Source: Octopus vulgaris | Lineage: Eukaryota | Length of the DNA stretch: 64,000 bases | NCBI GenBank assembly: GCA_951406725.2 | Contig: OX597821.1 | Span: 108,500,001-108,564,000, forward strand | Direction of reading: 5' to 3' | Shown: piece by piece, positions 2,769 through 50,099 of the stretch | Position numbering within the stretch: position 1 is the first letter of the stretch | Layout: every line of letters begins with the position of its first letter | Program-made: the position numbers and the translations under genes | Notes under the pieces: generated by a model | Database searches by the model: none | Seen by the model: the letters and a program-made list of their open reading frames with translations, nothing else | What the model was told of the DNA's origin: nothing

Positions 2769-2932
2769 TAAACATATACATATATATACTCTCATATGCA
2801 TTGCGGAATTGTGTTCATTGTTTCACACCCATGAAAAATTATGTTCTTTGTTGTTTACAAACGTATAAATTTCAAAACATACGTATGTCGGTATCCTTCT
2901 ATTAATGTATACGTATATATATATATACATAC

Positions 2933-3018
<86 letters not shown>

Positions 3019-3392
3019 ATGTATGTATGCATATTTGTTTACGTGTGTCTTTCTATGTGTTCGTAGAAGCACATGTGTTCGTATGTATCTAATTATCTAT
3101 CAATCTACACATTTGTACGCACACAGTCGATCATATCCACGCCTCCACACACACATACACACACATACGTACACGCACTTGCAAACACACTCCCACCCCC
3201 ACCACATACACGCAAATGACTACACCCCGTGTAAATCAGAACAATATGTCGCTGAAGACAAAAGCACACATGGGACGGAGGAAATATGTGACACTCGTCT
3301 TGCATTGTCTGAGAAGTAAGATACACCGGCAATAGGAGGAGAATAATATATATATATATATATATACATATACACATATATACATATATACA

Positions 3393-3434
<42 letters not shown>

Positions 3435-3517
3435 TAGAATAAAAAGTTTAGATTTTATCCCCTGAAATAAAAATTATATATATATATAGAGAGAGAGAGA
3501 TAGGTATGTACGTGCTC

Positions 3518-3585
<68 letters not shown>

Positions 3586-3587
3586 TA

Positions 3588-4006
<419 letters not shown>

Positions 4007-4215
4007 GCACGTGTGTGTGTTTGTATGTCTGTGTTTGTCCCTCACCTCCGCTTGACAATCGATGGTGGCGTGTCTACGTCCGGTAACTTAGCGGTTCGGC
4101 CAAAGGGACCAATAGAATAAGTACTAGGCCTACAAAGAATAAGTCCTAGGGTCGATACTCTAGCACGGTCGCAGTCAAATCACTGAAACAAATATAAGAA
4201 TGAAAGAATAAGAAA

Positions 4216-4311
<96 letters not shown>

Positions 4312-4537
4312 TTGTGAAAGCGAGTGGCCTAGTAGTTAGATGTGCTGCACTCAACATCGTGTGATCCTGGTCTTGGTTACCAGTCCAGCATTGATACCAT
4401 CCACCCCTCTGTGTATAGGTAACCCCACAACGGAATATTCTTCCGATCCGGAGGGAAATGCTAGCGTGCTTTTCATTATATATATATATATATATATATA
4501 TATAGATAGATAGATAGATAGATATATAGATAGATAA

Positions 4538-4600
<63 letters not shown>

Positions 4601-4659
4601 TATACATATATACACACACAGACATATATATATATATATACATACACACACACACACAT

Positions 4660-4699
<40 letters not shown>

Positions 4700-5120
4700 T
4701 TTTTTCTCTTTTTACTCTTTTTACTTGTTTCAGTCATTTAACTGCGGCCATGCTGGAGCACCGCCTTTAGTCGAGCAAATCGACCCCGGGACTTATTCTT
4801 TGTAAGCCCAGTACTTATTCTATCGGTCTCTTTTGCCGAACCGCTAAGTTACGGGAACGTAAACACACCAGCATCGGTTGTCAAGCAATGCTAGGGGAAC
4901 AAACACAGACACACAAACATATTCACACACACTTATATATATATATATACATATATACGACAGGCTTCTTTCAGTTTCCGTCTACCAAATCCACTCACAA
5001 GGCATTGGTCGGCCCGGGGCTATAGCAGAAGACACGTGCCCAAGATGCCACGCAGTGGGACTGAACCCGGAACCATGTGGTTGGTTAGCAAGCTACTTAC
5101 CAAACAGCCACTCCTGTGCC
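4700..5120 (-). mobile_element. Full-length tRNA-derived SINE, family A (CORE-like centre, LINE-like tail)
   Basis: The minus-strand head GGCACAGGAGTGGCTGTTTGGTAAG...GGTTCAGTCCC has A/B-box-like motifs. The centre is CATCTTGGGCACGTGTCTTCT and the tail is GGCGGTGCTCCAGCATGGCCGCAG...GACTGAAACAAGTAAAAAGAG. There are many copies in the window. Confidence 0.85.
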
Positions 5121-5152
<32 letters not shown>

Positions 5153-5288
5153 CATACATATATATATGTGTGTCCCGTAACTTAGCGGTTCGGCCAAAGG
5201 GACCAATAGAATAAGTACTAGGCCTACAAAGAATAAGTCCTATGGTCGATACTCTAGCACGGTCGCAGTCAAATCACTGAAACAAAGA

Positions 5289-6620
5289 AGCTGCCTTACG
5301 CAGCTGTTACAACACTACGACTGGGTACTGAAACAACTACTGGATCGCTCACAGGTGGATGTGGTATATCTCGACTTTGCGAAGGCCTTTGACAAAGTCG
5401 ACCACGGAGTGATATGTCACAAATTACTCAGACTCGGCATAACAGGAAAAGTAGGTGAGTGGATACATGACTTCCTGAAGGACAGAAGCCAGATGGTTGC
5501 AGCCAATGGAGCCCTCTCGGGAAAGACACCAATAGCAAGCGGGGTGCCACAGGGCACAGTCTTGGGACCCTTGCTGTTTTTGGTGGCGCTCTCTGACATG
5601 CCCTTGGTAGCACAAACAACATCCCTCACTAGCTATGCTGATGACACAAAGGTAGCACAGGCAATCAAAAACCCAGCTGATGCTGACCTTTTACAACAAG
5701 ATCTGGATGCCATATACAAATGGGCTGAAGACAACAACATGCAATTTAATGCTGGTAAATTTCAAGCCTTACAATATCAAGCTGTAAACACATATACATT
5801 ACAACACAACTATACTGGTCCAGGAGGGATCGAAATCCCAGTATCGAAATCAATACGGGACCTGGGGATAGACATGAGTGACGATGCATCTTTTTCGTCA
5901 CACATCGCGAAGGTGGCGACAATGTGCAGACGACTCACTGGCTGGATCCTGAGGACATTCCGGACAAGAGACTGCGAGACCATGTTGACACTATGGAGGA
6001 CATTTGTCCTAAGCCGCCTGGACTACTGCTCCCAACTGTGGTCACCGCATAGTGTCAAACTAACCACAGAGCTTGAGACAATCCAAAGACATTTCACCAA
6101 GAGGATTTCCACCATGAAAGAAAAGAACTATTGGGAGAGGCTTAGGGAACTCAATTTGTACTCCCTGGAACAAAGACGAGAGAGATATGCAGTGATATAC
6201 ATATGGAAAATCCTGGAGGGACTAGCACCAAATTTTGGAATTGAGAGCTGTTCCAATCCCCGTACAGGACGTCACTGTGTGGTGCCAAAGGTCCCGTCTT
6301 CCACATCCAGGGTAAGGAGCAGATACTGTAATAGCCTGGGGTTCAGGGGCCCTCAGCTGTTCAACAAACTGCCAAGAAAACTAAGAGATCTACATGATGC
6401 GGATGAGGACATTTTCAAAAAACATCTAGACAAGCTGCTTTCCGGGATCCCAGATGAACCCACTGCAAGGTACGAAGGTAACCTAAGGACAGCAGCTACA
6501 AACTCTCTCTTAGATCAGTGGCCAGCCACGGCAAACTGGACTTAGAGAGGGTAGCAACAAGGGCGGTGCCCCAGCATGGCCTCAGCCGGATGGCTGAAAC
6601 AAGTAAAAGAGTAAAAGAGT
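5289..6620 (+). mobile_element. CR1-group LINE, 5'-truncated, with uninterrupted RT and C-terminal reading frame (ORF 5355-6545)
   Basis: The frame is open from SCLTQLLQHYD (5289) through YLDFAKAFDKVDH, SGVPQGTVLGPLLF, YADDTK, RDLGI and LYSLEQRRERY to the stop at 6545. The tail GGCGGTGCCCCAGCATGGCC...GCTGAAACAAGTAAAAGAGTAAAAGAG is followed by (TA)n. Confidence 0.93.
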
Positions 6621-6636
6621 ATATATATATATATAT

Positions 6637-6687
<51 letters not shown>

Positions 6688-6833
6688 CGTATTTTTGCCA
6701 TTTCAATATGGCTAACCCCTAAGGGTGGATGCTACTGTAGTTTTTAGCCCCAGGAGGACACACTCCTCCAGCTGGCCATAGACACACTTTCTGTGTTACC
6801 GCTACTGTATATAACTCACTTTGATATATTATC

Positions 6834-6886
<53 letters not shown>

Positions 6887-7479
6887 TATTAATATTAGGA
6901 AAGTTATTTCCGAGTCCACAGGGGGGAAAACTTCAATTTAGTGGTACTAAAATAAATTACTCACTGTATCATATACATATATATTGATAGGTTGAAGAGA
7001 AAGAATCCCCCTCAAGCAAATCAATCATCATTGAAAGACATTATCCTCGATAGGTACATATAGGACTTAATATTAAAATTATCAAAATTATTACCTTCAA
7101 TTCTTATTCTAAATCATATACGTTACATTATACAGACTACGCGCGTTTCATGACAACTAATTCCCTGATATTGCTAAAATAGGTCTCGTAATACATTACC
7201 ATATTAAAACGATTTCAATAGATAGCATATATTCCGATGGGGTTGGATATAAACCGACTGTAATTTACAACTGAAACAAATCGGTTATTGTTGTATATAA
7301 ATAAAAAAAAAGGACATGTCTATGAACTTGTGTTTCTGTTGATAATTTATTTAAGAAAATGCATAAAAGTTTTGAAAAGAGAATTTTATAAAATCTTTTG
7401 TGAGTATAGGTTTGAAATCAGGATTGCTAACTTATCCAAATATGTTTTGTACACATCTTATCAAATACTTCACATCGTA

Positions 7480-7898
7480 AACGCCTTCATCGTCGGAGGC
7501 GTTAATATCATAATCGTGGTCGTCCTCTTGTCGTTAACATCATCTTATCGTCGTCGTAGTAAGTCATCGTTGTAGTCGTTGTCCGCATCATCATAATCAT
7601 TGTCGTCTTAGTTATCATCATCATCATCATCAATTTCATCATCATTATCATCACCATTCTTGTCGTTGTCGTCGTAATCATCGTCAATGTCATCGTCGTC
7701 GTGATCATCATCGTTTCCTTTATCATCATTATCGTCGTCAACCTCATCATCATCATCAATGTCATCATCGTGTTCCTCATCGTCACCGTCGACGACGACA
7801 TAATCAACATCGCTTCCATTATCATTACCACCATCGTTTTCTTCGTCGTCATGGCTGTTGCAGTCGTTGTCATCATTGTCATCATCATCATCATCATC

Positions 7899-7985
<87 letters not shown>

Positions 7986-8050
7986 GACATCATTGTGATC
8001 ATCAACATCACCAACCTGATTACCATCTCCTGTGCCCCAAAGCATCACCT
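7480..8050. repeat. Degenerate (CAT/CGT)n trinucleotide array
   Basis: Directly visible; source of the poly-M/D/I ORFs. Confidence 0.95.
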
Positions 8051-10028: not shown

Positions 10029-10493
10029 GGATCTTTTCGGTTTGAACGCCAGTTTTTAACATAATTTCTAGGTAACTAAAAAATTTTAAACTTCGTATAC
10101 TGGTAGAATGTGTTTATAAAACATCTTTTTCGCTTGTCTTTATTGAGAAAATTCTATAGTTTGTAAGATATTTGTTGGGGTCTTTTTCTGCAATTTCTGC
10201 AATTTCAGCCAATCAAATACGTCAACTGAGGTAAAAAAAAACATTCTGTGCCGTATGAATATGTCCCTCGTTTAAGAAACAGATTGGGTTTATTTACATT
10301 TGTGAAGAAAAAAAGATACCCTTCCCCCACCCCTAAACCGAACTCTAACCCTAACTAACCCTAATTAACCATAACTATCCCTAACCCTAAAACAGATTGA
10401 AATGCAATAGATCTTATACTAGGGTCATAATTATGGGTGACAATTTCATATGACACCGCTAGAAAAAAACTGCCGTTGAAACCGAAAAGATCC
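10029..10493. mobile_element. 465-bp MITE with GGATCTTTTCGGTTT terminal inverted repeats and an 8-bp TSD (Merlin- or MULE-like)
   Basis: It starts GGATCTTTTCGGTTTGAACG and ends CGTTGAAACCGAAAAGATCC. AGTCAAAT is duplicated at 10021-10028 and 10494-10501. GG termini with an 8-bp TSD fit Merlin or some MULEs. Confidence 0.88.
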
Positions 10494-11624: not shown

Positions 11625-11917
11625 CCCTAAAACCCTAAAACAGATTGAAATGCAATAGATCTTATACTAGGGTCATAATTATGGGTGACAATTTCATATG
11701 ACACCGCTAGAAAAAAACTGCTGTTGAAACCGAAAAGATCCAGTCAAATATATAAACGTAGATGCTAGGTGTAGTTAAACAAGATTATGGATGCTTAAAT
11801 TGAACGGATCATCAGAGACCACTTAGGTGCATTAAGATGGAGAGTTTGAGTACCCAGCGTTATTTTCGTATTTCATGTTTGTTTACGTTCTTTGACATCC
11901 TGTACCGATATATTCAT
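11625..11917 (+). repeat. Local duplication of about 10380-10668 (MITE right end plus flank)
   Basis: The sequence is near-identical, including the TIR, the AGTCAAAT TSD and about 170 bp of flank, with a handful of substitutions. Confidence 0.9.
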
Positions 11918-13333: not shown

Positions 13334-13490
13334 AATACATGCATGTTCGCATGTGTAGTTATATATATATGCGTTTATTTATATATACATACAGACAGAC
13401 ATACGTGTGTGCGTGCATATGTATGTATATATATATATTGTTATATTTCGGAATGGTCATAAAAAATCTTGCACAACAAATATTTAAACG

Positions 13491-13522
<32 letters not shown>

Positions 13523-13989
13523 AACTTGCGTATGTATGAATGTACGTATGTATGTATGTATGTATATATGTAGGTATGTATGCATGTATGTATGTATGTG
13601 GGGGTAAGAAGAAGAAACATGCAGTGATTTCATCGCTTCAAATGCACAGAACATATGCCAAAGACCAAATTGAAATCTGTATTGTATTGCTAAGTGTAAT
13701 CCTCCTAATTCGCTCAAGTTCTTTCTTACATGCGATGTGAACGAAAAAAAAAATGAAGCTCAAGGAATAATGCAACACCTCCGTCAGCAGCAGTAGTAGC
13801 AGCAGCAACAACAACAACAACAACAAGAGCGGAGCAGAATACAAAACAAAAATGAATATCACGGAATAAAACGCAATAAGATTTGAATTACACACTCTGT
13901 TATACATAAACAGACAAGCAGAAACGAAGCAAAGTATTTTCTCAAACAAATAAGAGAAAAGAAATTGTGATTAACAGAAACAAAATGCA

Positions 13990-14078
<89 letters not shown>

Positions 14079-14095
14079 CTCTCTCTCTTTCTCTG

Positions 14096-34552: not shown

Positions 34553-36146
34553 GCAACGACGACGACGACGACGATGAGAATGATGATGACGATGATGATG
34601 GTGATGACGATGACGACGACGATGATGATGATGATGCTGATGATGATGATGATGATGATGATGAGCACAAATAATAATTTTCCGTGATCGAAATGGAGAG
34701 TGTTGGAAGGCGTCATTATCGATCTCTGATCTTGGTGGAATTGATCAGCTTGGATGATTTTGTTGTTTCGTTTCCCTTTTTTTATTGGTCTTCGATCTCT
34801 TTCTCATGGTTTTATTATCGATGCTAATGATGGCGTCGTTGGTATTGTTATTTGCGTTGAGGTCAACGTGGTCAAGTTGTGGTGATGGCGGTGGGTGTGG
34901 TGTTGGTGGTGAGGGTTGTGGTGGAAGTGGTTGTGATAGTGGTGGTAGTGGTGGTGATGGTAGTGGTGGCGGTCATCGTCGTCGTCGTCGTCGGTGTCGC
35001 GACGATGACGGTGAAGGTAGCAGTGGTGGTGGTGGCTGTGGTTGTGATGGCGGTGGTGGAGCTTTTGTTGTTGGCGGTGATGGTGGTGGTGGTGGTGTTG
35101 ATGTTGGTGATGGTGGTTATGGTTGTGATGGTGGTGGTGGCAGTGATGGTTGCTTTTGTTTTGGTGACTATGGTTGGGATGATGGTGGTGGTGGTAGTGG
35201 TGGTGCAGCTGTTATTGCTGTTGTTGGTGGCGGTGGTGGTGCTGTTGATGTTGGTAGTGGTAACGATGGTGGTGGTGGTGGTGTTTGTTGTCGTCGTAGC
35301 GATGGTGGTGGTGTTGACGATGACGGTGGTTGTAGTTATGGTTGTGGTGGTGATGGTTGTGGAGGCTTTACTCGTGGAGCTACTGACGGTCATTGTAAAT
35401 GGTGATGTTAGTGGTGGAGAAGTTAATGATGATGGGGACGGTGGTGGTGATGGTGGTGGTGGTGGTGGTGGTGGTGGCAGTGCTGCTGCTGCTGTTGAGC
35501 GAACGGTCTTCGTCCCAGAGCTCGCAAGATGGGAGGAAGTCCGAAAAGTGGTCCTTTGCTATTCGTAAGACCCGCAGAAGTGAAAACAGGTCAAACCCCA
35601 ACACCGAGAGCATCGACGGATGGATGAATGCGCATCCAGGCTCAGCGGTTGCGTAGGAAGTCGGGGGACAAGTAACAGGAAGAAAGAGTGAGAGAAAGTT
35701 GGGGCGAAAGAGTACAACAGGAGTCGCCACCCCACCAGGTGGTGTTAGGAATGGTAGTTCGGTGATTGCTTTTGTTCTTGTTGTTGTTGTTGTTGTTGTG
35801 ATGATGGTAGTGATAGTGGTGGTCGTGGCGTCAGTGGTTGTATTAGATACGACGCCCGCCTTGGTGTTGATGTTGTTGATTGTTGTTGCTGGTGGTGGTG
35901 GTGGTGGTGGTGGTGGTAGTATTGGTCGTGTTAGTGATGGTGACGGCAGTGGTGGTGGTAGTGGTGGTAGTCATTGGTATTGTGGTAGTAGTGGCTGTGT
36001 TAGTGGTGGTGGTGGTTGTAGTGAGGATATATTAGTGGCTGTGGTTGTAGCGGTGGTAGTGGTGGTAGGGATAGTATTTGTAGTGGTGATGATGTTAGTG
36101 GTGGTGGTGGTGATGGTACGTGTGTTGGTGTTGGTAGTGCTGGTCG
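33240..36146 (+). repeat. About 2.9-kb degenerate (GGT/GAT/GTA)n array, resumed at 49062-49295
   Basis: Directly visible. It is interrupted by a SINE fragment at about 35497-35737 and by the 12.9-kb element. Confidence 0.93.
35497..35737 (-). mobile_element. SINE family C-related fragment with a different 3' part
   Basis: The minus strand GGTGGCGACTCCTGTTGTACTCTTTCGCCCCAACTTTCTCTCACTCTTTCTTCCTG matches 24093-24150. Confidence 0.65.
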
Positions 36147-36476
36147 GGATCTTTTCAGTTTGAAGGCCAGATTTTCTTAGTTAACTAAACAATTTGAAAC
36201 TTCGTATACTGGTAGAATGTGTCAAAAGAAAACATAATTGTAACCCAAAATGAAAACGGAATTGTAATTTCTAAGTTTAACGTTGTTTAATAATTCGAAT
36301 TTTAACCAATGATATTCTTTCTTTCGACCTCATATTATTTACTGCTTCTCAAAATATTGTTACTGTGACGTAAACAGCTATTTTGTGACGTAGTTAACGT
36401 AAACATGTAAACAGACCTACAGATTCGTTTGTAACGTAAACATCCGCTCATCGTAAATAGCTAAATTCGCTTGGCA

Positions 36477-37001
36477 TCGTACACAGCTTTTTCAGTTCCC
36501 TAGAATTATATTTCAAAGAAAATAAAAAGAAAAAGATTCATACGCATAAATATCCATCCTTAGACATCAGAAAATTAGTGTTTAAATTATTTTCCATTGT
36601 TTGCATTGCTTACACACACACACACACATACATACATACACACATACTAAAATTACATCGTTGGAGCAGTAATTTATTTATGTATTTTTTGTTATACAAT
36701 TTATTTTAAAGCTGAATCCCTATCCTGCCATTAACCCCTTTCTTATAAAATAGTTGAAGAATCTGGGGTGTAGGTATTGGGCCAGTATTGGAACTTTTAA
36801 CTTCTTGCTCTCTATCTTATGATCTCCGAAATTTAAGAATCTTGTGTTAACTGGGCTCTTATTATTTACTCTGACTCTGCCACCACCTCAATGCAAAGAC
36901 TATCAATATCAGAATCATCTTCACAACCACCACTACAACCATTACTACAACCTCGAATGCCACCACCACAACCATCTTCTGCAACCACAACCCCAAGATC
37001 A
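36477..37001. repeat. Left arm of a near-identical internal inverted repeat (partner 47900-48782)
   Basis: ORFs 36891(+) and 47775(-) share MQRLSISESSSQPPLQPLLQP. AAAAGATTCATACGCATAAATATCCATCCTTAGACATCAGA is reverse-complemented at about 48689-48730. Confidence 0.92.
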
Positions 37002-37330
37002 ATACCAGCATCATATTCAAAATCACCAATTTCACCACCACTACACTCTGCAATGTCTTCAACTCTACCATTCATGAGACATCCTAACATAATCAATGCT
37101 ACTACTACTATCATCATCATTATCATCATCATCCACTGCCGCCACCGCCACCACCACCTCTACAAAAACACCAACACTATAATTTCTGCCATCATACACA
37201 TCCACTGTCACCACTACACCACCACTGCCATGATAACCACATCTACCACCTCCAACACCATTGCCACCACTATCTATGAGACATCCTAAGTTAGAAACTA
37301 CTTTCACTTTCTAGTTGCTCTTTGAGTTTA

Positions 37331-37732
37331 TCTTTATATATAAAAGAGAGGTTGTGTGTCTGTCTCCTACGATTTAGATTCCTAACTACTCCCACATTTT
37401 GCGGTGCAGTTTAACCAAAACCGGGTATCTTATAGTCGTGATTCATATCGAGCCCTTCTGGGTATTAGCGCGCGTCTACGATGAGTCTACGATTTAAAAA
37501 AAAATTTACCATCATTTTTTTCCATTTTAATGCATTTTTTCGATATTATATAAGGGAAGTAACTCTCTAAAAATGTCTACGATGAGTCAACGATTTTAAA
37601 AAAAAATTTACCATCATTTTTTTTCCATTTTTAATGCATTTTTTTTTGCTATTTTTTTGGCTATAACTCTCTAAAAATGCTTATATAGTTATTTCCCTTA
37701 CAAACCCGAGCAACGCCGGGCGATACTGCTAG
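37331..37732 (+). mobile_element. Non-autonomous Helitron-like element
   Basis: It has an A|TC 5' end, a subterminal hairpin CCCG-AGCAACGC-CGGG and a CTAG|T 3' end, with an internal tandem duplication starting GTCTACGATGAGTC. Confidence 0.8.
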
Positions 37733-38324
37733 TTATATCTAATCTATCTCTCTAAAAGATGCAAAGCAAGTAGCATTAAATGGTGAATGGATGTGAGCAG
37801 AAAGAGAGTAAGTTCCATTCCAGTTTACAACAATTATAGAATTATTCTCAAACCATAAATGAAGGGTGGAGAGGAGTGAAGGAGGAGTCATATTTTCTCT
37901 GAGGGGTTACAGAAGTAATAAGCACTGAAAAGTGGAGTTTGCGTTATTATTTTTGTTTCATAGTTTACAATTATTTCTACAAATTCATTTTGACTTATCT
38001 TCAATCATGTTTATAAACGTGACCGCTGTGCCGTCCACTATAAACATTGATTAATGTCCTATATTTAAGCGATAGACAAACACTTCAGCATATTATTTTT
38101 TGTAGAGAGTTGCGAGGGATCATTTCTATGAACGGGGTATCTGTACAACGGATATGACTACATCATTAATTGTGGAGTCGTTTAAAAACACAATGCAAGA
38201 TTAAGTCAACATGGAATTTTTGAAACAATCATAAATTGTTCTATATTTTAGAGATGAGGAATTCTGTATAATATTTACATTTTTTACATTGGACGGATAT
38301 TTGTCCTCATCTTGTTTGTTGCTA

Positions 38325-38369
38325 CCACAAAATTTCGGCTGATTTACTCTCCAGCCTTCATCAGGTGTC
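38325..38369 (-). ncRNA. Degenerate minimal hammerhead motif
   Basis: The minus strand reads ACAC-CUGAUGA-A-GGCUG...CAGCC-GAAA-UU-UU-GUGG: stem I CAC/GUG, 5-bp stem II, collapsed stem III. Confidence 0.6.
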
Positions 38370-38839
38370 CTGGTAGAATTTTGAATCCAACCCTAGGTTC
38401 TAAGGTGCCACGCAGTGTGAATGAACCTGAAACTATGTGGCTGGTATGGCCGGTCAGGGAGTCACCTTTGCTTTCGCGCCTTTTACGTTCTTAGAAGTGG
38501 GAGACGTCTATATTGCTAAGAGTATAAAAAGTGTGAAACCAATGATAACGTCCTGACTGGTCGTAAACCACAACTACATTAGATATTACTACGATATATC
38601 TAAAAAAAACATTTACTTGTCTCAGTCATTCGACATATTCTATCGGTTAATTTCGTCGAACTTCTAAGTTGCGGGGATGGAAAGGAAGTCAACAAGCGGT
38701 TGTCTGGGACAAGCACGAAGCTAGCCCCCTCCGGCCCACAAACACGTATATACGACGGGCTTTTTTCAGTTTCCATCGTCCAAATCTATTTGACCTAGTG
38801 ACCAGGCAGCAAACTTCTTGTCACACAGTCACTCCTACG

Positions 38840-38922
<83 letters not shown>

Positions 38923-39552
38923 GTCCCCGTAGCTTAGCGTTTTGGAAAAAGAAACCGATAGAATAAGTGCTAGGGTTCCAAAGAGTAAGTCCTGGGGTCG
39001 ATTTCTATAACTAAAAAACTTTCAAACTCTGCTTGTTGTTCTTTCACCTGTCTTCGTCGTTTGTTTGTTTTCTGTAAATTTGAACTACACACACGCGCGC
39101 GCGCGCGCACACACACACACTCACACACACACACACACACGCACACACATATATATATAGGTAAAAGATTAATGAGTGCGTGCGTTACATAAATAATATC
39201 TTCAGGATTAAATAAAAAGACAACAAACGGAAAATATGACATATCTATATATATATAATTAAAAATAAACGTATTGTAAATAAACAAACGAACACATACT
39301 AAATGCACAGGCGAACAGGAAACACACAAGGTCACAAATTCTTCATCAGTTATCAGCAAGAGGAGTCAAACGCAATTTCGGGCATTATCGATACTATTGT
39401 TTCTTTCGCTGTTCGCAAAAAAGTTCGTATTCCATATTTTCGTATTTCGTATTTCCTGTTGTTTACCTTCTGTGACGTCCTGAACCCATATATGCATATG
39501 TATATACATATATATGTAAGTATATACATACATACATACATACATACATACA

Positions 39553-39639
<87 letters not shown>

Positions 39640-39865
39640 CATTATCTATAAACATTACAATTGTTTCGACACATTTTTACACTTGTTCATTGGTGAGATG
39701 TTGTGTAATCATTATCACCAATTCAAGGTGTGAAATGCACCTTCTTTGAGTAAGACTTTATACGAGCTTTATATAGCATACCACAAGGGTTTTACCCGTA
39801 TATTTACTCGCGTATGTGTGTATATGTATAAAAGCGGAGCAAGAGTACACACGAAGACAGAAAGT

Positions 39866-39908
39866 GTCGCTGAAGAGTTCACAGAGGTGTGACGAAAGAT
39901 TTCCGGAC
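39866..39908 (+). ncRNA. Candidate minimal hammerhead motif
   Basis: GUCG-CUGAAGA-GUUCAC-AGAG-GUGUGAC-GAAA-GAUU-UC-CGGAC; stems I and II each need one bulge. Confidence 0.5.
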
Positions 39909-40153
39909 GATAAACATAAATTAGAATAAGAACAGTAATAAATGAGTGAAAAGGGAATTATATAGTGCGCCTGTTTATTTGGCAAAAAGAGGGAAAAAAT
40001 AACTATCTCGAAATACAACAATATCTGTTTCAACGCACGGTTTCACATCAAGAATCTTGCAGCACACATATATAAAAGGATATATTTACAGAAAACAACA
40101 AAAGACGAAGACAGGTGCAGGAATAACAAGCAGGTGCATTAGTTTATGTAGAG

Positions 40154-40254
40154 AATACCAAACGAGTTCCCTATGGATACCGTATTTATTACAACGAGTG
40201 GCTTGTAAACGAGTTGTAATAAATACGGTATCCATAGGGAATGAGTTTGGTATT
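40154..40254. repeat. About 100-bp hairpin with arms of about 42 bp
   Basis: AATACCAAAC...TTCCCTATGGATACCGTATTTATTACAAC pairs with GTTGTAATAAATACGGTATCCATAGGGAA...GTTTGGTATT. Confidence 0.9.
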
Positions 40255-40350
40255 TTATTTATTACACACGAATAAACGACCATATTTTATTAACCCAATA
40301 ACTAAATTCTTCACGTTTAGTTGTAACTTATGAATGACAAAAGTAGTGCC

Positions 40351-40454
40351 GTCACCGTGACGTCGGGTCATCACCATGGATTGACCAATCAGAAGCAGCG
40401 CTGTCACCGTGACCTCGGGTCATCACCATGGATTGACCAATCAGAAGCAGCGCT
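40351..40454 (+). repeat. Two tandem copies of a unit of about 52 bp with a CCAAT box and a TGACGTC-like motif
   Basis: GTCACCGTGAC(G/C)TCGGGTCATCACCATGGATTGACCAATCAGAAGCAGCGCT occurs twice. Confidence 0.85.
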
Positions 40455-40607
40455 CGCAGTATCTGACATATGTTAGATAACAAAAATATCTCAAAGTGTT
40501 CTCACTCACATGTGTTCGATATTTAAGTGTCGAAATTATCAAGTCACATGAAAGAAATACCTTACAAAGTAAAAAATTTTTAATTTTTGTTAATTTTTAA
40601 TTTTTAA

Positions 40608-40654
<47 letters not shown>

Positions 40655-40695
40655 GTGAAGGAAGAAACGAAGATTTAACAAAATTCCTTTTTATT

Positions 40696-40781
40696 ATTTT
40701 CTACATATGTTTCAAAGGCTGCAAAGTCCCTAATTCGGATTGAATAAGGAGTCCATTTTGCAGCCTTCTCTTCAGGAAAAT
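40696..40781 (-). ncRNA. Minimal type-I hammerhead ribozyme motif (second copy of the 18762 family)
   Basis: The minus strand reads AUUUUC-CUGAAGA-GAAGGCUGCAAA...UUUGCAGCCUUU-GAAAC-AUAU-GUA-GAAAAU. It has a 6-bp stem I, a 12-bp stem II and palindromic stem III. Confidence 0.85.
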
Positions 40782-41736
40782 CCAGGAACTTAATTCTCCA
40801 ACAAAATGCACAGCAAGCTTTTCACAAACGCTCACGAGGAGCCCATGGAATAAATGGCACAAACTGTCTATCTATATGCGTTGACGCCAGGCTGGGTGAA
40901 AGCAGACGAGAATGTCCGTTAAGATAGTTCAAGGTCAGAATCCGGTTAGGAGAAGTGGGGTACAGGAAAATCAAAGAGTGTGAATGTATTCTGTATGACT
41001 GGTGTTTATATTTGAATTATTTTAAGAATGAGTGCTAGAGTGTTTGATTGTGAGAAATTGCTTTCATGTATGTGTGTGTGCGTCTATGTATGTGTGACAG
41101 TGTGTTTCGAAGGCAGCAAGAGAGAGAGATATAGCAGGTATTAATGGTCAAGCAACAGAAAAGACTGTATATATATATATAAATTAGAAAAAAAACACCT
41201 TTTATCAATTCATGATATATACGATTTATTTATTATTTTGCACATTACTTAATCATCGGTATGTTATTATTTTATATTTAATATTTCTATTATATGTAAT
41301 TTTCTAGATGGTGTAATTTAATTGTTCATTTTGAATTGATAAAAGGTGGTTTTTTCTAATTTTATATTTCTTCGTGAAAGTCCGTTCGTCGCTATTTTTC
41401 GCGACCTTTTCAATAGCTTGTCCTTTCTCTTCAACGTCTGCCCTGAAATTTGGTCGCGAATTAATTTTATGTCTGCGTGCATGCATGCCTTTCTATGTGT
41501 GTGTAGATGTGTGTTTGCTTAGAAGAATAAGGGTGAGAGGAAAGGAGATTATGTGCGTGCGTGGGAGTGTGTATATATGTGTGTGTGTGTGCGGGCGTAT
41601 GTGTGTGGTTGTGTTTACACTCGTGTGACTACTTGCATGTGTATGTGTACGTGTGTGTTAGTATGTGTAGCCATCCATGACTAGGTATGTGTATGTATAA
41701 CTGTGTCTATATGCGCACATAGATTTATATGCAAGA

Positions 41737-41960
41737 GGCGGCGAGCTGGCAGAAGCGTTAGCACGCCGGGCGAAATGCTTAGCAGTATTTCGTCTACGTT
41801 CTGAGTTCAAATTCCGCCGAGGTCGACTTTGCCTTTCATCCTCTCGGGGTCGATAAATAAAGTACCAGTTTCGCACTGGGTCGATGTAATCGACTTAATC
41901 CGTTTGTCTGTCCTTGTTTGTCCCCTCTATGTTTAGCCCCTTGTGGGTAGCAAAAGAAAT
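41737..41960 (+). mobile_element. SINE family B, full length
   Basis: Head GGCGGCGAGCTGGCAGAAGCGTTAGC, B box GAGTTCAAATTCC, core GCCTTTCATCC..TCGGGGTCGATAAATAAAGTACCAG. Confidence 0.87.
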
Positions 41961-42317
41961 ATATATCATGTATATATTTGAATAGAAGCAGGCGTGACTG
42001 TGTTGTAAGCTGTTCCGGGTTCAGTCCAGCTGCGTGGCACTTTGAGCGGGTGTTTCTATTATAGCCCTGGGTCGACTAAACCCTTGTGAGTAGATTTGGT
42101 TGACGGAATCTGAAAAAACTTGTCATATATGTGTTTATCAATATCAAGGCCGAAACAGCTGTCAGCTACAATGTAAATGTATTTCTATGTCTTGTTATAT
42201 TTGCACTATATTAATGTATAATATCATTGCTATTGTGTAGTGGTTTAATAAAGTATTGATTCGGTATTATCTGATGGTTGATGATTGATTTGGATATATT
42301 TCTCCATTTTCTCATTT

Positions 42318-42372
<55 letters not shown>

Positions 42373-43136
42373 ACGTATAATTATTTTCTTGTTAATTAAT
42401 GATTCCTATCAATATAAGTATTCCCCCACTACATGTCTACTATTACATGTCTTAAAAAAGAAACAAAAATCTCATTGTTTTGGGCGAATGATTCAACCAT
42501 TATGAAACCAAAGATTTTTTACTGTTGTTTCTCAAGGCAGCTGTGCACCTCACCAACCCACCCATCCCACTTTACATGACACATTCACTTGCATTCTTTT
42601 ATTTATTCTGATCTCCCACCCAAAGAATATTCATCCTAATAATTTCCATGACTTTTGTTTCGGGTGAACTTCTACTTAGAAGGAAATTCCATTTATGCAT
42701 GTATGCATACATTTACACCGCGAAAAGTCATTTAACATTGTCTTTACATTTGGATGGTTATCATTAAAAAATGTTTTGAAACCTAGAATTGTTTCTTCTT
42801 TTATTAATTTCAGTCAGTGTGCTATGACCATGCTCAGGCACTGTCTTTGGGTGTCTTTCATTGATCCTATCAATATTAGAGATAATTTCAAACATAGGGC
42901 AGCGTCCCATTTTAACGATGCCTGTTCATTGAAAGTAACCTTTGATAGCCTAGTATACTAGAGCAGTAAACATGTAAATGAACACACACACATACACACA
43001 AACACATCTTGCGGGCTTCTTCATAGAATCATTCTCCCAATTTGACTCACATGACATTGATCAACCTAAGACTACAGTAAAAGACAACCCAGAAACCCAT
43101 GGGTGTGAAGCAAATCTTTCAACCACAAATCTATCC

Positions 43137-44250
43137 TTTGAATGTAATGCCATCATGACAAATTATTCCATGAAGAAAGTTAAGCTGGAGCAGCACCAGA
43201 AATTAAGGCATCCATCATCTGTTGGTAAAGGTCGGGAATATTTTGAGAATAAAAAGAAAATACAGCTAATCAAACTACCTGACTTTGTAAAGAAGATAAA
43301 TATTGTAAAAGTAAAGATACTCAAACCAAGTTATTTGGTTTCTGAAATTATTGCCAAGGTTGCAGCACCTCAGATTTAAGGCGAGAATCTTGTCAAGCCT
43401 GCTATGATAGCTTGTGCAAATGAGGTTCTGGGAAAAGATGCTGAACCTACTCTGAGTACAATTCCACTTTCAAATAACACAATTACAAGAAGACAGGATG
43501 TTGAGGAGAAAGAAGACTGTGGAAATTCTCCGAACGACCAATTTTTCTATCCAGGTTGATGATAGCACAATTCATAACCAAGTTATCCTTCTGGTCTATG
43601 TCAGATTCAACCATGAAGATGATATAAGGGAAGAAATGTTATTCATTAAAAGTTTTTTTTGAAACAACTAATGGAGAAAATATATTCAATGAAGTAATGC
43701 AGTATTTTAATGATAAAAATATTCCATCGACTAATTTGATCAACACTGCATCAGATGGAGCTGCAGCCATGACTGGAAAAGTGAAAGGTTTTGTTTCTAG
43801 AATGAAATCAGTTGCTCCTCACATTTTAAATATACGTTGCACTATCCACAGACAGCATGTGGTTGCTAAGAATATTGGAGGACACATGGAAAATGCACTC
43901 AACACTTCCATACATACAAATAACATTGTCAAATCAAACTCTGTGAATAATAGATTTTTTATGCAATTCTGTGAAGATGAAGATTTTAAAACCCTATTGC
44001 TTCACACAGAAGTAAGATGGGTCAAAAGGCATGAGCCTTGAAAGACTAGTGAATTTGTGGGAGCCATTAATCCACTTTTTCATGTTCAAGAGTCAGATGA
44101 CTCATTACAACTTCAAGACAAACTGATACAGCTAAGAAAATTTTGGAAAGACTTTCTGAGTTTAAAAAAAATATTATACTTGAGTGATATTTTTAAAACA
44201 GTGAATCTGCTTAACTGCAAGGTAGAAAATCAGATTTGGTCACCTGTATA
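43137..44250 (+). pseudogene. Decayed hAT transposase of the Buster/Charlie (ZBED5/ZBED8/FAM200-like) group
   Basis: Fragments read SMKKVKLEQH..RH, SYLVSEIIAK...GENLVKP, IPLSNNTITRR, FSIQVDDST, LLVYVRF...EEMLF, SDGAAAMTG, C.IHRQ and LLLHTEVRW. Stops and frameshifts are present, and no matching TIRs were found. Confidence 0.88.
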
Positions 44251-44269
44251 CTGCTAGTATACATATATA

Positions 44270-44770
44270 CTAGCAGTAAAACCCATTGTTGATCAGGTAA
44301 CTTACTTTGACTGTTTATCGAGAGCCACATTTAAAGTATTATATGTATAATTTACTTCTCCTGTGTGTGTGTATTTTTATAAGAGAAAACCATGTAATAA
44401 TTGAAGTAGAAGAAAGATTAATATCATACATGAACTTGTGTTTGTTTATGATAGCTAAGGCGGTGATAGACAGCTAATGCGTGCATGAATGCGATGCGAT
44501 CTCTGCCCAGTATGCCGAAGTGAAGAATGCATTAAGTAAATAAAAAGCAAGCGATTATTAGAGAGCAATAGCTGCCTTAGCCGCGTGCATAAACGCGATG
44601 CGTCCATGTGTTACGTACGCTACCGGACACACACTCACGGGCGATATCGCCACCGAGATGACAGCTTTTCGATCGATCGCATCGCTGGCCGCCAACTCTT
44701 TGCTCGCTCCAAATGCTATTGCTCTCTACTACAAATCCCTTGTCTGCACCCAACTTTATTACTAATATGA
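44270..44770 (-). mobile_element. Probable non-autonomous Helitron-like element
   Basis: The minus strand begins A|TCATATTAGTAATAAAG and ends ...CTGCTAG|T, with a decayed hairpin resembling the 37331 element end. Confidence 0.5.
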
Positions 44771-44789
44771 TTATCGTTGTTGTTGTCGT

Positions 44790-47026
44790 TGTCATCATCA
44801 TCATCATCATCGATTAACGTCCGTTCTCCATGATGGCATGGGTTGGACAGTTTGACTGAAGTCTTGGAGAGCCAGCTGCTGCAACAGGCTCCAATCTAGT
44901 CTAGCATAATTTCTACATCTAAATGCCCTTCCTAACGCCAACTATTCTGAGAGTGTAGTGGGTGTTCTTTATGTCTCATCAGCACAGGAGCCAGCTAGCG
45001 GGTCACCGGCCCCCAGCTACGGTATTGGTTTTACTTGACTCAAGCAAACTGCAAGCTTACGTATGTCCTCGGCATTCATGGCCCATGTTTCACTACCGTA
45101 TAGCATGGCAGTTCACACACATGCATTATACAGTCCACCTTTCCCCCTGAGTGAGAGGCCATTAGCTGCCAGCAGAAGTAGGAGCTCCCTGAATTTGCTC
45201 AGGCTATTATTACTCTAGTTGCTACACTCGCAGAGCAATCACTCCCACAACATACTTGGTCGCCTAGGTAGTAGAAAGTATTTATTACTTCTAGTTTCTT
45301 CCTCAGGCATGTAATGGAAGCTGTTTTCTGAACACCTTCAGTGTTTATTGCCCCACTGCATCTGCCACACACAAGAAATAATTTTCCCAGTTAACCTTCC
45401 TTTGATATTGCTGCACCTTTTATGTGTCCATAGCTTACACCGGGTGCATCGTATGGAGTTTCTACCAATGCCTTTTCTACAGAGGAGTTTGTGATTTGAC
45501 AGCCTGCACACTAACTAAAACTTTGGTTTTGGCTAGGTTAGCCCTAAGGCCATTCAATTCTAGACTTTGCTTCCACGCCCTCACCTTTGGCTCCAGTTCC
45601 GGCAGTGACTCTGCTATTAGTGCAAGGTCATCAGCATAGAGGAGCAGCCTCTCTTGAATTCCTCTGTTATTGCCTGGAGGACTATAATGAATAAGAGGGG
45701 GCTGAGGACTGATCTTAGGTTGACCCTTACCCCTACCCGATATTCTTCACTGTACTCGTTGCCAACCGTCACCTTACTGTACATGGCTTGTACAGCTCTC
45801 AATAAACATTCATCCATCCCTAGTCTCCTCATTGACCACCAGATAGGGGATCGGGGGACCCTGTCAATGAAAGCCAGGTACAGAGTTTTATCTTGGACTA
45901 GCTATTTCTCCTGCATCTGTCTTATCAGAAATATAGCATCAGTGGTGCTTTCCCCTGGCACGAACCGAAACTGCATCTCATCTAGACTGCCTCTCTCCCT
46001 AATTACTTGGGCTATGACCCTCTCCGTGACCTTCATTACCTGATCCAACAACTTGATACCTCTGTAATTATTTGTATCGAATGCGTCACCTTTACCTTTG
46101 TTAGCAGTTGACTATGGTGCTGCTACACCAGTCATTGGGTATCACCTAGTTGACTATGCTATAGCCGACACCGCTAGATAGTTTGAGCATCTGTGGTGAT
46201 TCCTGATTGCCCAGGGGCTTTCCCTGTCTTCATACCCTTAATTGCTTTACCTACCAAGGCACTGTCAATTTAGTTAGATAGCTGGTCCCTCTGTTGGGCC
46301 GGCATTCGGCAGACTCTCTTTCACACATTCATTCACTTTATTTAGCAAACTTTCATAATGGCGTCTCCAAACCTGTCTCTTTGCAGCTTCGTTTAAAGCA
46401 AGTGAACCATCACCCATGAGGACACATTTCTCTCCTAGGACATCGCGATTCTCTCTCACACACTGTCTGGCAACAGGAAAATACTTCAAGTCATTGGTCA
46501 TCACAGCGCAGAACATTGGCAAATTTTTCCTTATCTGCTTCCCCTTTGGCCAAATACAAACCTATCTCCTAGCTTCCCTTTTGGCAGTCTGATACAATTC
46601 CCTGCTATCACCGGTCTTCCAGTCCTTCAAAGCCTGTTTCTTTCCCTTACTAGCCCTGTCAACAACATTGTTCCACCACCACATTACCTTGGGTTGAGAG
46701 GAGACTTTGCACCATCCACAGATCTGGTCACTAGCCCTCAAAAGGTTGTCCTCCAGTTGTCTTCCACAGCTTTGAGTAATATGTCTCTCAATCTCTTTTT
46801 GCAGGATCCTTAAGCTTCCAGACCCTTCTCCTCCATTCTGGTCGTCTTCTGGGCATCCATTTAGCCCTGATCCTGAAGTTGCTAACTACTAATCTATGTT
46901 ATGGGGTACATTCTTCACCTGGGAAGGTTTGGACATTTACAAGTAGTTGTCTTTCCTGTTTCCTAGTGAGGAATGTAGTCAATTTGACTAGTGTGTCTAC
47001 CAGATTGGTAGGTTACTAAATGGCCC
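44790..47026 (-). mobile_element. Decayed RTE-clade LINE (end of endonuclease, RT, Cys-rich C-terminus, (GAT)n tail)
   Basis: The minus strand reads HLVTYQSGRHTSQIDYI, WWNNVV, YRGIKLLDQVMKV.ERV, STTDAIFLIRQMQEK, SVLSPLLFIIVLQAITEEF..LLYADDL and C..CKLWTHKRCS. The 3' end is CCCATGCCATCATGGAGAACGGACGTTAATCGATGATGATG. Confidence 0.88.
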
Positions 47027-47899
47027 TGAATATGCTAATCGATTAGCATTTAGTAATTATGATACTTCTACAATTGAAAATAATTTTAATAAATAAGGAA
47101 TTTATGTATTGTGGCATTTGATACTTGTCAATTGTCTACATTGTTCACATAAATGCCAGTACCAGGCAGAGGAGGTTTCCAGCAGTAAGAGAAGCTTAAG
47201 AATAAATAAATGGAAATTTGTCGGCAGAACAAAGTTAGCAACCTCTTACACTCTCAGTGTTGTGATGAGAGCCAAGGTACCCTCTTGTGAGGAATGGACT
47301 GAACCGAGAGAGTGTATATAGTTTGTGTTATTTCTTACCAGATTGTCATCCTTCTTACCAGATTGTCATCCTTCTGAAATTCCCTTGTCCATGTTATTTC
47401 CTCTGCAGCCATCCACACATTTTATTCAAGATCAACTACGTCAATCTTACCAGTTTTGAAGGCACAGCTCTTGTCTCAGAAGGAATGCAAAAGGCAAGGA
47501 TACAGCCCCCTTTATCCAGCCAAATTGTTCAAATAAAACATGGGAAAAAAATCCTAACACCCACTACTATTCCTGTGAATTAGTAAGCTGTAAACTATAT
47601 CAAACTGAGCCCACATCATCATCTTTAACATGTCTCACAGCTAGAACACTTTTACTAAATATTTTAGCCAATCATTTATCTCCAGAATGGCAGATTCTGC
47701 ATGGAATCACATTCTCATCAGACATTAATTTACACAAGTTGAAAAAAGACATCATCTACATTCACATTAACAGTTTAGGAAAGCCTACAGATGTTCTCTT
47801 GCTCGCACTTTATGTTAATACAAATAATAATTTTTAACAAAGGTACATAGCCAAAAATTTTATAGGAGGAAATAATGTCAACTATATTGACCCACCCCT

Positions 47900-48782
47900 G
47901 GTCTTGGGGTTGTGGTGGTGGCATTGGAGGTTGTAGTAATGGTTGTAGTGGTGGTTGTGAAGATGATTCTGATATTGATAGTCTTTGCATTGAGGTGGTG
48001 GCAGAGTCAGAGTAAATAATAAGAGCCCAGTTAACACAAGATTCTTAAATTTCGGAGATCATAAGATAGAGAGCAAGAAGTTAAAAGTTCCAATACTGTC
48101 CCAATTCCTACACCCCAGATTCTTCAACTATTTTATAAGAAAGGGGTTAATGGCAGGATAGGGATTCAGCTTAAAAATAAATTGTATAACAAAAAATACA
48201 TAAATAAATTACTGCTCCAACGATGTAATTTTAGTATGTGTGTATGTATGTATGTGTGTGTGTGTATGTATGTATGTATGGATCAAAACAGTTTGATTCA
48301 AATTCTGTGGTACTTATATATTCATACATACATATACATGTAGATGTATATAACCTATATATATATTGTATGTAAACATCTTTTATAAATATATATAATT
48401 CATGCATCTATAATACACACACATTATAAATATATACACATATATGCATATGCATTAGAATATGTGTGTATAGGTGTATATATATATATATGCATATGTT
48501 TGTATACATGTGTGTGTGTGTGTGTGTGTGTATAAAAATAAATATAAGCATAACCAAGGCAAACAATGGAAAATAATTTAAACACTCATTTTATATATAC
48601 TCAGGATCTACACAAATTTTATATATACTCCACGAAGTTCAAAAGGTAAAAATCCGGTATTTTAAATTTTTGTTGCATTTCTAATCTTTCTGATGTCTAA
48701 GGATGGATATTTATGCGTATGAATCTTTTTCTTTTTATTTTGTTTCAAATATAATTCTAGGGAACTGAAAAACTGTGTACGA
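47900..48782. repeat. Right arm of the internal inverted repeat (partner 36477-37001), with extra internal sequence
   Basis: Reverse complement of 36477-37001, with insertions around 48260-48690. Confidence 0.9.
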
Positions 48783-49068
48783 TTACGATAAAGCAATGTT
48801 TAGCAATGTTTACATTTTGACAAATTGCTTTCCACGTCACAGATAACACTACGCAGATAATAAGTTCACATAAATACAGACAATACGATTGGCTAAAATT
48901 CGCAGTTTTAATCTACGATTAAAGTCATAAAATAGATTTTTCTCAAATAAACTAGTTTCAACTTGTGTCTTGTTTTGAGACACTGTATTATCACACGAAG
49001 TTTCAAATTATTTAGTTAAGTAGAAAGATCTGTTCTCCTGGTTTCAAAACCGAAAAGATCCGCTGGTC

Positions 49069-49124
<56 letters not shown>

Positions 49125-50099
49125 GGTGGTGGTGGTGGTGGTGGTGGTGGTGGTGGTAGTACTGGTAGTAGTAGTAGTGGCTGTGTTGGTAGTGATGATG
49201 TGAGTGGTTGTAGTGGTGGTGGTGTTTGTGCTAGTGGTGTTGTTAGTGGTGGTGGTGGTGTTGGTGGTGGTGATTATGGAGGTGACTGCGGCGGTGGCGT
49301 ATGCAGCTTTTTTTTTTGTTGTTTTTGGAGGGGTCTGTCTTTATCTTATCATCTATGAATGACTGCCGGACTCTGTTTTAGATTTGTGCGAACAGGTGCG
49401 AAGCCTGGGAGTCAATTACGTCTAGATAAACGATGGCTTCAACTGATTGCATGTGTATATATATGCGTGTGTGTATGGGTATATGTATGCATGTATGTAG
49501 GTGTGTAAATGTATGTGTATGCTTGTATTGTATGTAACCAAGTGCGTATGCATATATAACTGCATATATGCATATATATATGTGTGTGTATGTGTGTGTG
49601 TTTATGTACCCGTGTGTGTATGTTCGTATGCATGGATGAATGTACGCATGTATGTATATATGTACGCACAATTGTATGCTTGATTGTATATATGTATATA
49701 TATATGCATGTATGTATGTATGCATGTATGTATGTATGTATGTATGTATGTATGTGTGTGCATGTATGTATGTTTGTATGTATGTCTGTGTGTATGTATG
49801 TTTGTATGTATGTATATATGCATGTATATATGCATGCTTGTATATTTGTATGTACGTTGGTATGCATGTATATATATATAAATGGATGCATGCATAGATG
49901 TCCCTATGTATTCATAGATGTATGCATAAGGGTATGTATCTATACAATTACACGTTGCACACGTATGCACATGTATCTTGTCTCGGATTTTTAAATTTCT
50001 CATCAAAAGAAGAAAAATCTGATTTTTCTACACAGAAACAAGGTTTTTCAGAAGGAATTTACACAATATCAACTAGGTAGTTATGCAAGCATGCACTCT

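What the first reader, a model, noticed from the sequence alone, without database searches (positions are those of the whole stretch)
36147..49061. 12.9-kb cargo-carrying transposon with an exact 8-bp TSD and no cognate transposase
Seen: GGATCTTTTC...GAAAAGATCC ends, GCTGGTCG duplicated on both sides, and the GGT/GTA microsatellite resuming right after the element, so the block inserted as one unit. The interior holds Helitron-like elements, SINEs, hammerhead elements, a dead Buster-type hAT transposase, an RTE LINE and unassigned sequence. Known: GG termini with 8-9 bp TSDs characterise Merlin and some MULE families, whereas Buster hATs have CA-starting TIRs and a TA-centred TSD, so the hAT remnant is probably a passenger. 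Inference: this is a Pack-type or foldback-like non-autonomous element able to move more than 10 kb of genomic DNA, a possible agent of rearrangement. Some of the cargo may have inserted after transposition.
Basis: partly seen in the sequence, partly recalled or inferred. Interest (0 to 1): 0.72.

Follow-up and report, generated by a model that had tools for sequence, protein, structure and literature searches.

The report
Giant composite Merlin transposon in octopus
This 12.9-kb block is a short member of a family of jumping DNA in an octopus-like genome whose other copies reach 38-49 kb, carry other jumping genes as cargo and each sit between their own 8-base target duplication; it was likely moved by a small Merlin-type enzyme whose gene its ancestors likely carried and lost.

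Summary
It belongs to a genome-wide family. Of 39 relatives with both ends read, 29 have their own exact 8-bp duplication, 20 of them over 10 kb. The two ends come from two sister families (A..A', C..B) joined into a composite that multiplied as a 38-53-kb unit; five such copies differ by only 0.55-0.76%. The window copy lacks about 28 kb of that middle. The missing enzyme is identifiable: Merlin/IS1595 copies elsewhere carry the same ends (75-80% over ~250 bp), and one also carries the window's right-arm interior (93-95%). All close transposase copies found are broken. Cargo is transposon and repeat DNA; no host gene was found. Whether the 12.9-kb form itself jumped, or shrank in place, is open; spanning reads and an empty site were not obtained. 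The scan noted other Merlin-type MITEs and foldbacks in this genome, none with this sequence. Verdict: giant non-autonomous composite Merlin, a new variant of a known kind.

The parts
36147..49061 (.). Whole element, 12,915 bp, non-autonomous composite (A-type left end, B-type right end)
36139..36146 (+). Left copy of the 8-bp target-site duplication
49062..49069 (+). Right copy of the 8-bp target-site duplication
36147..36420 (+). A-type end; exact 10-bp terminal repeat plus ~250-bp subterminal region shared with transposase-bearing Merlin copies (194/256 to L242, 218/274 to L243)
   Evidence: 90 exact hits of its first 30 bases in the genome
48807..49061 (-). B-type end (205/259 to the Merlin end in L242); its outer ~105 bp differ from sister B ends while the next 315 bp are identical to L081
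36476..36973 (+). Left arm of the inner inverted repeat (blocks of 96%, 93% and 98.6%)
47908..48783 (-). Right arm of the inner inverted repeat, interrupted by microsatellite; lies where older relatives carry the transposase gene
37329..37733 (+). Helitron-like non-autonomous insert (TC start, hairpin then CTAG end); 94-96% copies also occur outside this family
   Evidence: label from end structure
38333..38364 (-). Hammerhead-core motif, 6-bp stem II
   Evidence: own motif scan; no Rfam hit
39870..39951 (+). Hammerhead-core motif (weaker)
40710..40775 (-). Hammerhead-core motif, 12-bp stem II
41736..42144 (+). Abundant dispersed repeats (SINE-like; 41736-41961 and 42012-42144)
   Evidence: clade not tested
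42144..42153 (+). Junction joining A-family interior to C..B-family interior at a short shared word; about 28 kb present here in the giant copies is absent
   Evidence: single match in the genome
43131..44244 (+). Frameshifted Buster-type hAT transposase remnant (SCAND3/FAM200-like), passenger; its own 5' end lost by a ~765-bp deletion at 43139
45148..46885 (-). Broken reverse-transcriptase LINE fragment
47027..47899 (-). Native non-coding region downstream of the Merlin transposase: 94.8% to L243 (47349-47899) and 74-82% to the compact 3.4-kb Merlin in L253
35890..36144 (+). Degenerate triplet tract, left flank (insertion site)
49069..49272 (+). Triplet tract, right flank (insertion site)

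Best explanation
The block is a non-coding transposon with inverted ends and an 8-bp target duplication, one of a family whose copies reach 38-49 kb, that shares its ends and part of its interior with Merlin (IS1595-type) transposase-bearing copies elsewhere in the genome and was likely cut and pasted by such an enzyme supplied from outside. Steps: (1) shown: compact Merlins with these ends exist (1.8-3.4 kb); (2) shown as a series of copies, inferred as an order: a Merlin lineage gained nested cargo (hAT, LINEs, mariner) up to 17-28 kb and lost its transposase gene (whole gene in L243, 133-bp scrap in L144, none in L147/L148 and later copies), giving the C..B family; a sister family A..A' grew likewise; (3) shown: in the giant copies a C end starts exactly where A' is cut 87 bp short of its tip; inferred: a C..B copy inserted there and the transposase then used the outermost pair, A and B; (4) shown: that unit sits at several unrelated sites with different exact duplications; (5) shown: the window copy joins A interior to C..B interior and lacks ~28 kb; inferred: deletion at a short shared word in an early branch of the composite.
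For: Left 454 bp: 40 of 40 scored candidates match full length at 98-100% (1399 candidates). Both ends read and exact 8-bp duplication: A..B 6 of 8 (window 12.9; C27 25.0; C22 38.0; C2 41.9; C3 45.1; C18 49.4 kb); A..A' 11 of 14 (0.4-65.6 kb); C..B 12 of 17, one more 7/8 (1.4-27.9 kb). C2 and C18 copies have no assembly gap. Five giant copies are colinear over 19-24 kb of aligned blocks at 0.55-0.76% substitutions. A'|C junction: 7 exact copies, 0 in the reversed control. Merlin link: L242 end 194/256 and 205/259 identical to the window's ends, ~520 bp upstream of a ~290-codon PF12762-type frame; L243+L315 carry end, transposase, and window 47899-47349 (94.8%), 43177-45081 (93.6%), 45522-47337 (95.2%); L253 is a 3.4-kb Merlin with both such ends and window 47027-47891 at 74-82%; L287 is a 1.8-kb Merlin with such ends and an exact 8-bp duplication.
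Against: No intact transposase with these ends was found: the closest matches (84-100% aa to the query) have stops or are split; the nearest open frame (L267, 317 aa, 71%) shows no such ends within 1.5 kb. L242's other end was not found in 37 kb read, and L243..L316 and L253 lack a matching duplication. 10 of 39 relatives lack an exact duplication, including the 52.8-kb C8 and 30.7-kb C15 composites. The predicted precursor (B end followed by the remaining 87 bp of A') was not seen. The window keeps 42150-42318 and 43128-47501, which all five giant copies lack, so it is not derived from them directly. C3, C22 and three A..A' copies contain 100-N gaps, and the middle 45 kb of the 65.6-kb copy was not read. 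No spanning read or empty site was obtained.
Confidence: 0.85

Rival explanations
1. Same family and enzyme, but the 12.9-kb form never jumped: a 40-kb-class composite inserted here and lost its middle in place afterwards.
For: The central junction has one match in this genome with up to 1 mismatch; every other composite read has its own private deletions or insertions.
Against: One 61-nt contig of run X1 (organism A) carries the junction letters 42119-42177 with no difference at depth 250, next to single-digit to ~20 depths of other contigs; it misses the tool's 31-letters-a-side rule and contig depth is no copy number, so this is only a hint; no listed contig of X2, X6 or X16 crosses it (32 of 732 pieces shown).
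Confidence: 0.4
2. The large cargo was not transposed: small resident elements, each with its own duplication, were filled by gap repair or template switching from a large donor, as described for single-copy Pack-TIRs.
For: The window's outer ~105 bp of the right end differ from sister B ends while the next 315 bp are identical, which looks like an end swap; PMC8277862 (abstract and passages) describes gap filling as the main route for single-copy Pack-TIRs in animals.
Against: Five giant copies have the same subfamily-specific A and B tips and the same internal junction and diverge evenly at 0.55-0.76%, although short relatives with other tip variants occur in many loci read; repeated 40-kb gap filling into only these tips is unlikely.
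Confidence: 0.08
3. A Mutator/foldback or KDZ/Zisupton-type element rather than Merlin.
For: GG ends, 8-bp duplication and long compound inverted repeats fit these groups too (Zisupton 8-bp TSD: PMC12730594 passages; MULE features recalled). MULE domains exist in the genome (66 matches).
Against: 0 of 30 MULE loci show such ends within 1.5 kb (short reach). The KDZ search found nothing but its control was silent too. Merlin copies share both ends and interior with the element.
Confidence: 0.04
4. Assembly artefact joining repeats.
For: Both arms are high-copy repeats; several relatives contain gaps; spanning reads not seen.
Against: An exact, window-unique duplication at both ends, no N in the window, and 29 independent relatives with the same architecture.
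Confidence: 0.03

Closest known systems
Merlin superfamily (IS1016/IS1595-related DDE transposons); PMC8101967, passages and supplement hits seen
   Same: 5'-GG ends, 8-bp duplication, PF12762 transposase of ~290 aa in related copies, imperfect terminal repeats, internal tandem repeats (114-bp array behind the gene in L242); Merlin is abundant in octopus per that paper.
   Different: Size: 12.9 kb here and 17-65 kb in relatives against 1.6-3.4 kb for transposase-bearing Merlins measured in this genome; no transposase in cis; ends from two families. No size above 10 kb for Merlin appeared in the passages read; a zebrafish Merlin of about 10 kb is recalled only (the original paper is not held).
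Ac/Ds macrotransposons of maize; PMC9910405, passages seen
   Same: Outer ends of two neighbouring elements act as one unit; 8-bp duplication; 10-28 kb units excise and reinsert.
   Different: hAT enzyme, laboratory alleles; here a natural family in an animal, 38-53 kb, present at several chromosomes.
Pack-MULEs and animal Pack-TIRs; PMC6431247 section 5 read, PMC8277862 passages seen
   Same: Non-autonomous TIR element carrying foreign DNA, moved in trans.
   Different: Those carry host gene fragments and are mostly 1-2 kb, none over 7 kb in the study cited; here the cargo found is other mobile DNA and the unit is 6-30 times larger.
Giant DNA elements (Polintons to 40 kb, Chondrus En/Spm 16-20 kb, Teratorn 180 kb, fungal Starships); PMC6431247 passages, others as search listings only
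   Same: Size class; hitch-hiking transposons as cargo.
   Different: Those encode their own large machinery (polymerase, viral genes, tyrosine recombinase); this one encodes none and relies on a ~290-aa DDE enzyme.

Membership tests
Merlin | Terminal inverted repeats starting 5'-GG | tested here: met
Merlin | 8- or 9-bp target-site duplication | tested here: met
   8 bp exact in the window and in 29 of 39 relatives with both ends read
Merlin | IS1595-type DDE transposase inside the element | tested here: not met
   No hit in the window; the element is a non-autonomous derivative, not an autonomous member
Merlin | Descent from a transposase-bearing Merlin (shared ends and interior) | tested here: met
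   L242, L243/L315, L144, L253, L287
Merlin | Ends recognised and moved by the Merlin enzyme | not testable with these tools
   needs a binding or excision assay
MULE / Pack-MULE | MULE transposase associated with the same ends | tested here: not met
   0 of 30 loci within 1.5 kb; 36 further matches not read
Pack-TIR | Captured host gene or unique host DNA with a parent locus | tested here: inconclusive
   Pfam on 48 selected frames (of more that were listed) gave RT, endonuclease, Pif1, mariner, HTH and weak PHD/zinc-knuckle hits only; parent loci of unassigned stretches were not sought
hAT Buster (as the mover) | CAG-type ends and TA-centred duplication belonging to the whole element | tested here: not met
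   Element ends start GG; the window's duplication is not TA-centred; the hAT has its own CAGTG start inside older copies. Feature definitions recalled.
Zisupton / KDZ | KDZ transposase in the genome | tested here: inconclusive
   No match, control silent
Macrotransposon (composite) | Outer ends of two elements flanked by one duplication, seen at more than one site | tested here: met

The most novel reading that the evidence does not exclude
One of the smallest eukaryotic cut-and-paste enzymes (~290 aa, Merlin) has repeatedly moved 40-65-kb blocks in octopus within roughly the last million years, building ever larger units by pairing ends from different elements and ferrying long LINE and Helitron reading frames between chromosomes: a natural giant-cargo system with no machinery of its own, and a candidate engine of octopus genome reshuffling.
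Probability: 0.55. Interest if true: 0.75.

Novelty: new variant of a known kind. Interest (0 to 1): 0.6.

Why it matters
A review of giant eukaryotic transposons (PMC6431247, section 5) holds that transposition efficiency drops above ~6 kb of cargo and that natural non-autonomous DNA elements stay small; it does not mention Merlin (0 occurrences). Here 20 elements over 10 kb have exact target duplications, and a 38-49-kb composite multiplied recently. That makes the size tolerance of a very small transposase directly testable, offers a traceable series from a 2-3-kb autonomous element to a 50-kb passenger carrier, and gives a concrete route for duplicating and rearranging tens of kilobases in cephalopod genomes. 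Limits: the cargo found is mobile DNA, not host genes, and no active enzyme copy is in hand.

Tried and rejected
hAT as mover: rejected (own end inside older copies). MULE: no linked ends in 30 loci. KDZ: uninformative. First Merlin look (40 loci) found other end types only (GGCAC, GGCGTAAC, GGTTAA); the GGTTAA-type Merlin inside L082 is a nested insert, not the parent. Rfam: only low-score microsatellite matches. Empty-site test by laying reads on 35840-36420: uninformative; three raw-read runs (3% of each read) gave almost no depth even on the multi-copy end, and no listed contig bridged the boundary. Concerted evolution of the two inner arms: inconclusive on 6 copies. Search for the partner end of L093, the closest match to the window's right tip: none in 40 kb. 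Five young A copies were followed for 20 kb without reaching an end, one stops at 4.2 kb, one meets a gap, one was last matched at ~15 kb; these are not in the counts. A positional tally of the family's target words was not made, so target preference is open. Literature: searches listed no description of this family or of a Merlin this large; the curated octopus repeat library behind PMC13282606 (parts 1-2 of 3 read) is on an outside server and was not seen, and may hold these consensus sequences.
Full report
Observation. The ends at 36147 and 49061 are an exact 10-bp inverted repeat, flanked by an exact 8-bp (not 9-bp) direct repeat that occurs only at these two places in the window and not in the flanking triplet tracts. 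The window has no N. The closest named proteins to the hAT remnant are from Octopus vulgaris, O. sinensis and O. bimaculoides, so the host is taken to be an octopus.

Family. The left 454 bp match 40 of 40 scored candidates at 98-100% (1399 candidates); its first 30 bases have 90 exact hits. Reading outwards from these and from right-end hits gave three architectures. A..A' elements (0.4-65.6 kb): 11 of 14 with both ends read have an exact 8-bp duplication, one of them a low-complexity run. C..B elements (1.1-27.9 kb, several at 17.4 kb): 12 of 17 exact, one 7/8. A..B elements: 6 of 8 exact, namely the window (12.9 kb) and copies on C27 (25.0), C22 (38.0), C2 (41.9), C3 (45.1) and C18 (49.4 kb); the 52.8-kb C8 copy (mutated tip) and the 30.7-kb C15 copy do not match. 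In all 29 of 39, and 20 of the 29 exceed 10 kb. Copies whose second end was not reached are left out of these counts. C2 and C18 are gap-free; C3, C22 and three A..A' copies contain a 100-N gap; only the outer 10 kb on each side of the 65.6-kb copy were read.

Composite origin. In all five fully read giant copies an internal C end begins exactly where the A' end is cut 87 bp short of its tip; this junction has 7 exact copies in the genome and none in the reversed control. So A..B is an A..A' element and a C..B element in tandem, moved by the outer pair of ends. That a C..B insertion into A' created it is inferred; the precursor was not found. The five copies are colinear and differ by 0.55-0.76% over 19-24 kb of aligned blocks; halved and divided by the 0.0036 per million years used in PMC13282606 (parts 1-2 read), that is about 0.8-1.1 million years, an upper figure since assembly errors add. 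Their shared cargo holds reverse transcriptase, endonuclease, Pif1 helicase and mariner frames, so most cargo travelled with the unit; private insertions also occur.

The window copy. It follows the giant copies from 36147 to 42144 and again at 42318-43127 and 47502-49061, lacking about 28 kb between. The join at 42144-42153 links A interior to C..B interior at a short shared word and cuts a hammerhead-like repeat of the C..B donor, so it is derived. It has one match in the genome. The window keeps 42150-42318 and 43128-47501, which older C..B copies have and the giant copies lack, and lies 0.9-1.3% from them: an earlier branch of the composite or an independent join. Whether this short form jumped is open. 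One contig of run X1 holds the junction letters at high depth but falls short of the bridging rule; the empty-site test gave nothing. The outer ~105 bp of the right end differ from sister B ends while the next 315 bp are identical to L081, and resemble L093, which suggests an end swap.

The enzyme. MULE loci showed no such ends in 30 of 30 read within 1.5 kb; the KDZ search was uninformative; the first 40 Merlin loci showed other end types. A B-ended copy (L144) carried a 133-bp Merlin scrap, which led to its clade. L242 has an end 194/256 and 205/259 identical to the window's left and right ends, followed by a ~290-codon transposase frame with three premature stops. Its open part hits PF12762 at 26.6 bits, just under the 27-bit cut-off; two sister frames pass it and two fall just short, and most of its 118 homologues carry PF12762. 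L243 and its continuation L315 hold such an end, the transposase, and the window's 47899-47349 (94.8%), 43177-45081 (93.6%) and 45522-47337 (95.2%), in rearranged order and without a matching duplication. L253 is a compact 3.4-kb Merlin with both ends and window 47027-47891 at 74-82%; L287 is a 1.8-kb one with an exact duplication, L277 and L289 match 6/8. The right arm therefore descends from a transposase-bearing Merlin, and the inner inverted repeat sits where the gene was. All close transposase copies are broken; the nearest open frame is 71% identical and shows no such ends nearby. Mobilisation in trans is inferred, not shown.

Passengers. The hAT remnant is SCAND3/FAM200-like and has its own CAGTG start in older copies. 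Helitron-like and hammerhead-like parts are supported by structure and motif only. No host gene domain was found in the 48 frames scanned.

Comparison. It meets the Merlin features given in PMC8101967 (passages; supplement hits) except for a transposase in cis, so it is filed as a non-autonomous Merlin derivative. It works like a maize Ac macrotransposon (PMC9910405, passages). PMC6431247 (section 5 and passages) gives 1-7 kb for Pack-MULEs, 16-20 kb for Chondrus En/Spm and up to 40 kb for Polintons and does not mention Merlin. Searches listed no account of this family; the original Merlin paper is not held and the curated octopus repeat library was not seen, either of which may bear on novelty. 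Earlier notes of this scan describe other Merlin-type MITEs and foldbacks in this genome; a look-up by sequence found none on this element.

Verdict. Observation confirmed; interpretation partly supported and extended. A giant, composite, non-autonomous Merlin: new variant of a known kind, interest 0.6.

Noticed in passing
window 10029-10493 and ~11630-11900: 465-bp MITE with the same 10-bp ends, its own exact 8-bp duplication and telomere-like repeats inside; its right half plus flank is repeated ~1.25 kb downstream.
   Followed up: partly
L259:9643-9676 (G000:C15:33954643): In the C15 composite the whole C..B part has collapsed to a 34-bp element made of a B tip and a C tip.
   Followed up: partly
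L082:7260-8960 (G000:C4:99.49 Mb): A Merlin of another family (GGTTAA ends, 315-aa open stretch) nested inside a 9.3-kb C..B element.
   Followed up: partly
L242:~2900-8000: Tandem array of a 114-bp unit, at least 5 kb long, behind the Merlin transposase; only a few units in L243 and L144.
   Followed up: no
L074, L080, L132, L141 and gaps in L295, L297, L305; near position 13,460-14,080 of the C22 copy: Several copies carry different long endonuclease-RT LINE insertions (frames of 1000+ aa, some in tandem) at about the same site of the cargo, suggesting a target-specific LINE.
   Followed up: no
L126, L128, L130, L139: A..A' elements of 18-65 kb carry long Helitron-like Rep/helicase frames (up to 769 aa) as shared cargo.
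   Followed up: no
L063:6972-9947 (C2 copy): A 992-aa open endonuclease-RT frame inside the giant element, broken in the other copies read.
   Followed up: no
L142:523-3004 (G000:C20): 2.5-kb element with B-type ends on both sides and an internal C end, no matching duplication.
   Followed up: no
L267, L268, L269: Open Merlin frames of 285-356 aa without close-matching terminal repeats nearby; possibly domesticated.
   Followed up: no
window 36147-36420 in runs X20-X22: Three raw-read runs gave almost no depth on an end present 90 times in this genome; filter, label or true absence cannot be told apart.
   Followed up: no
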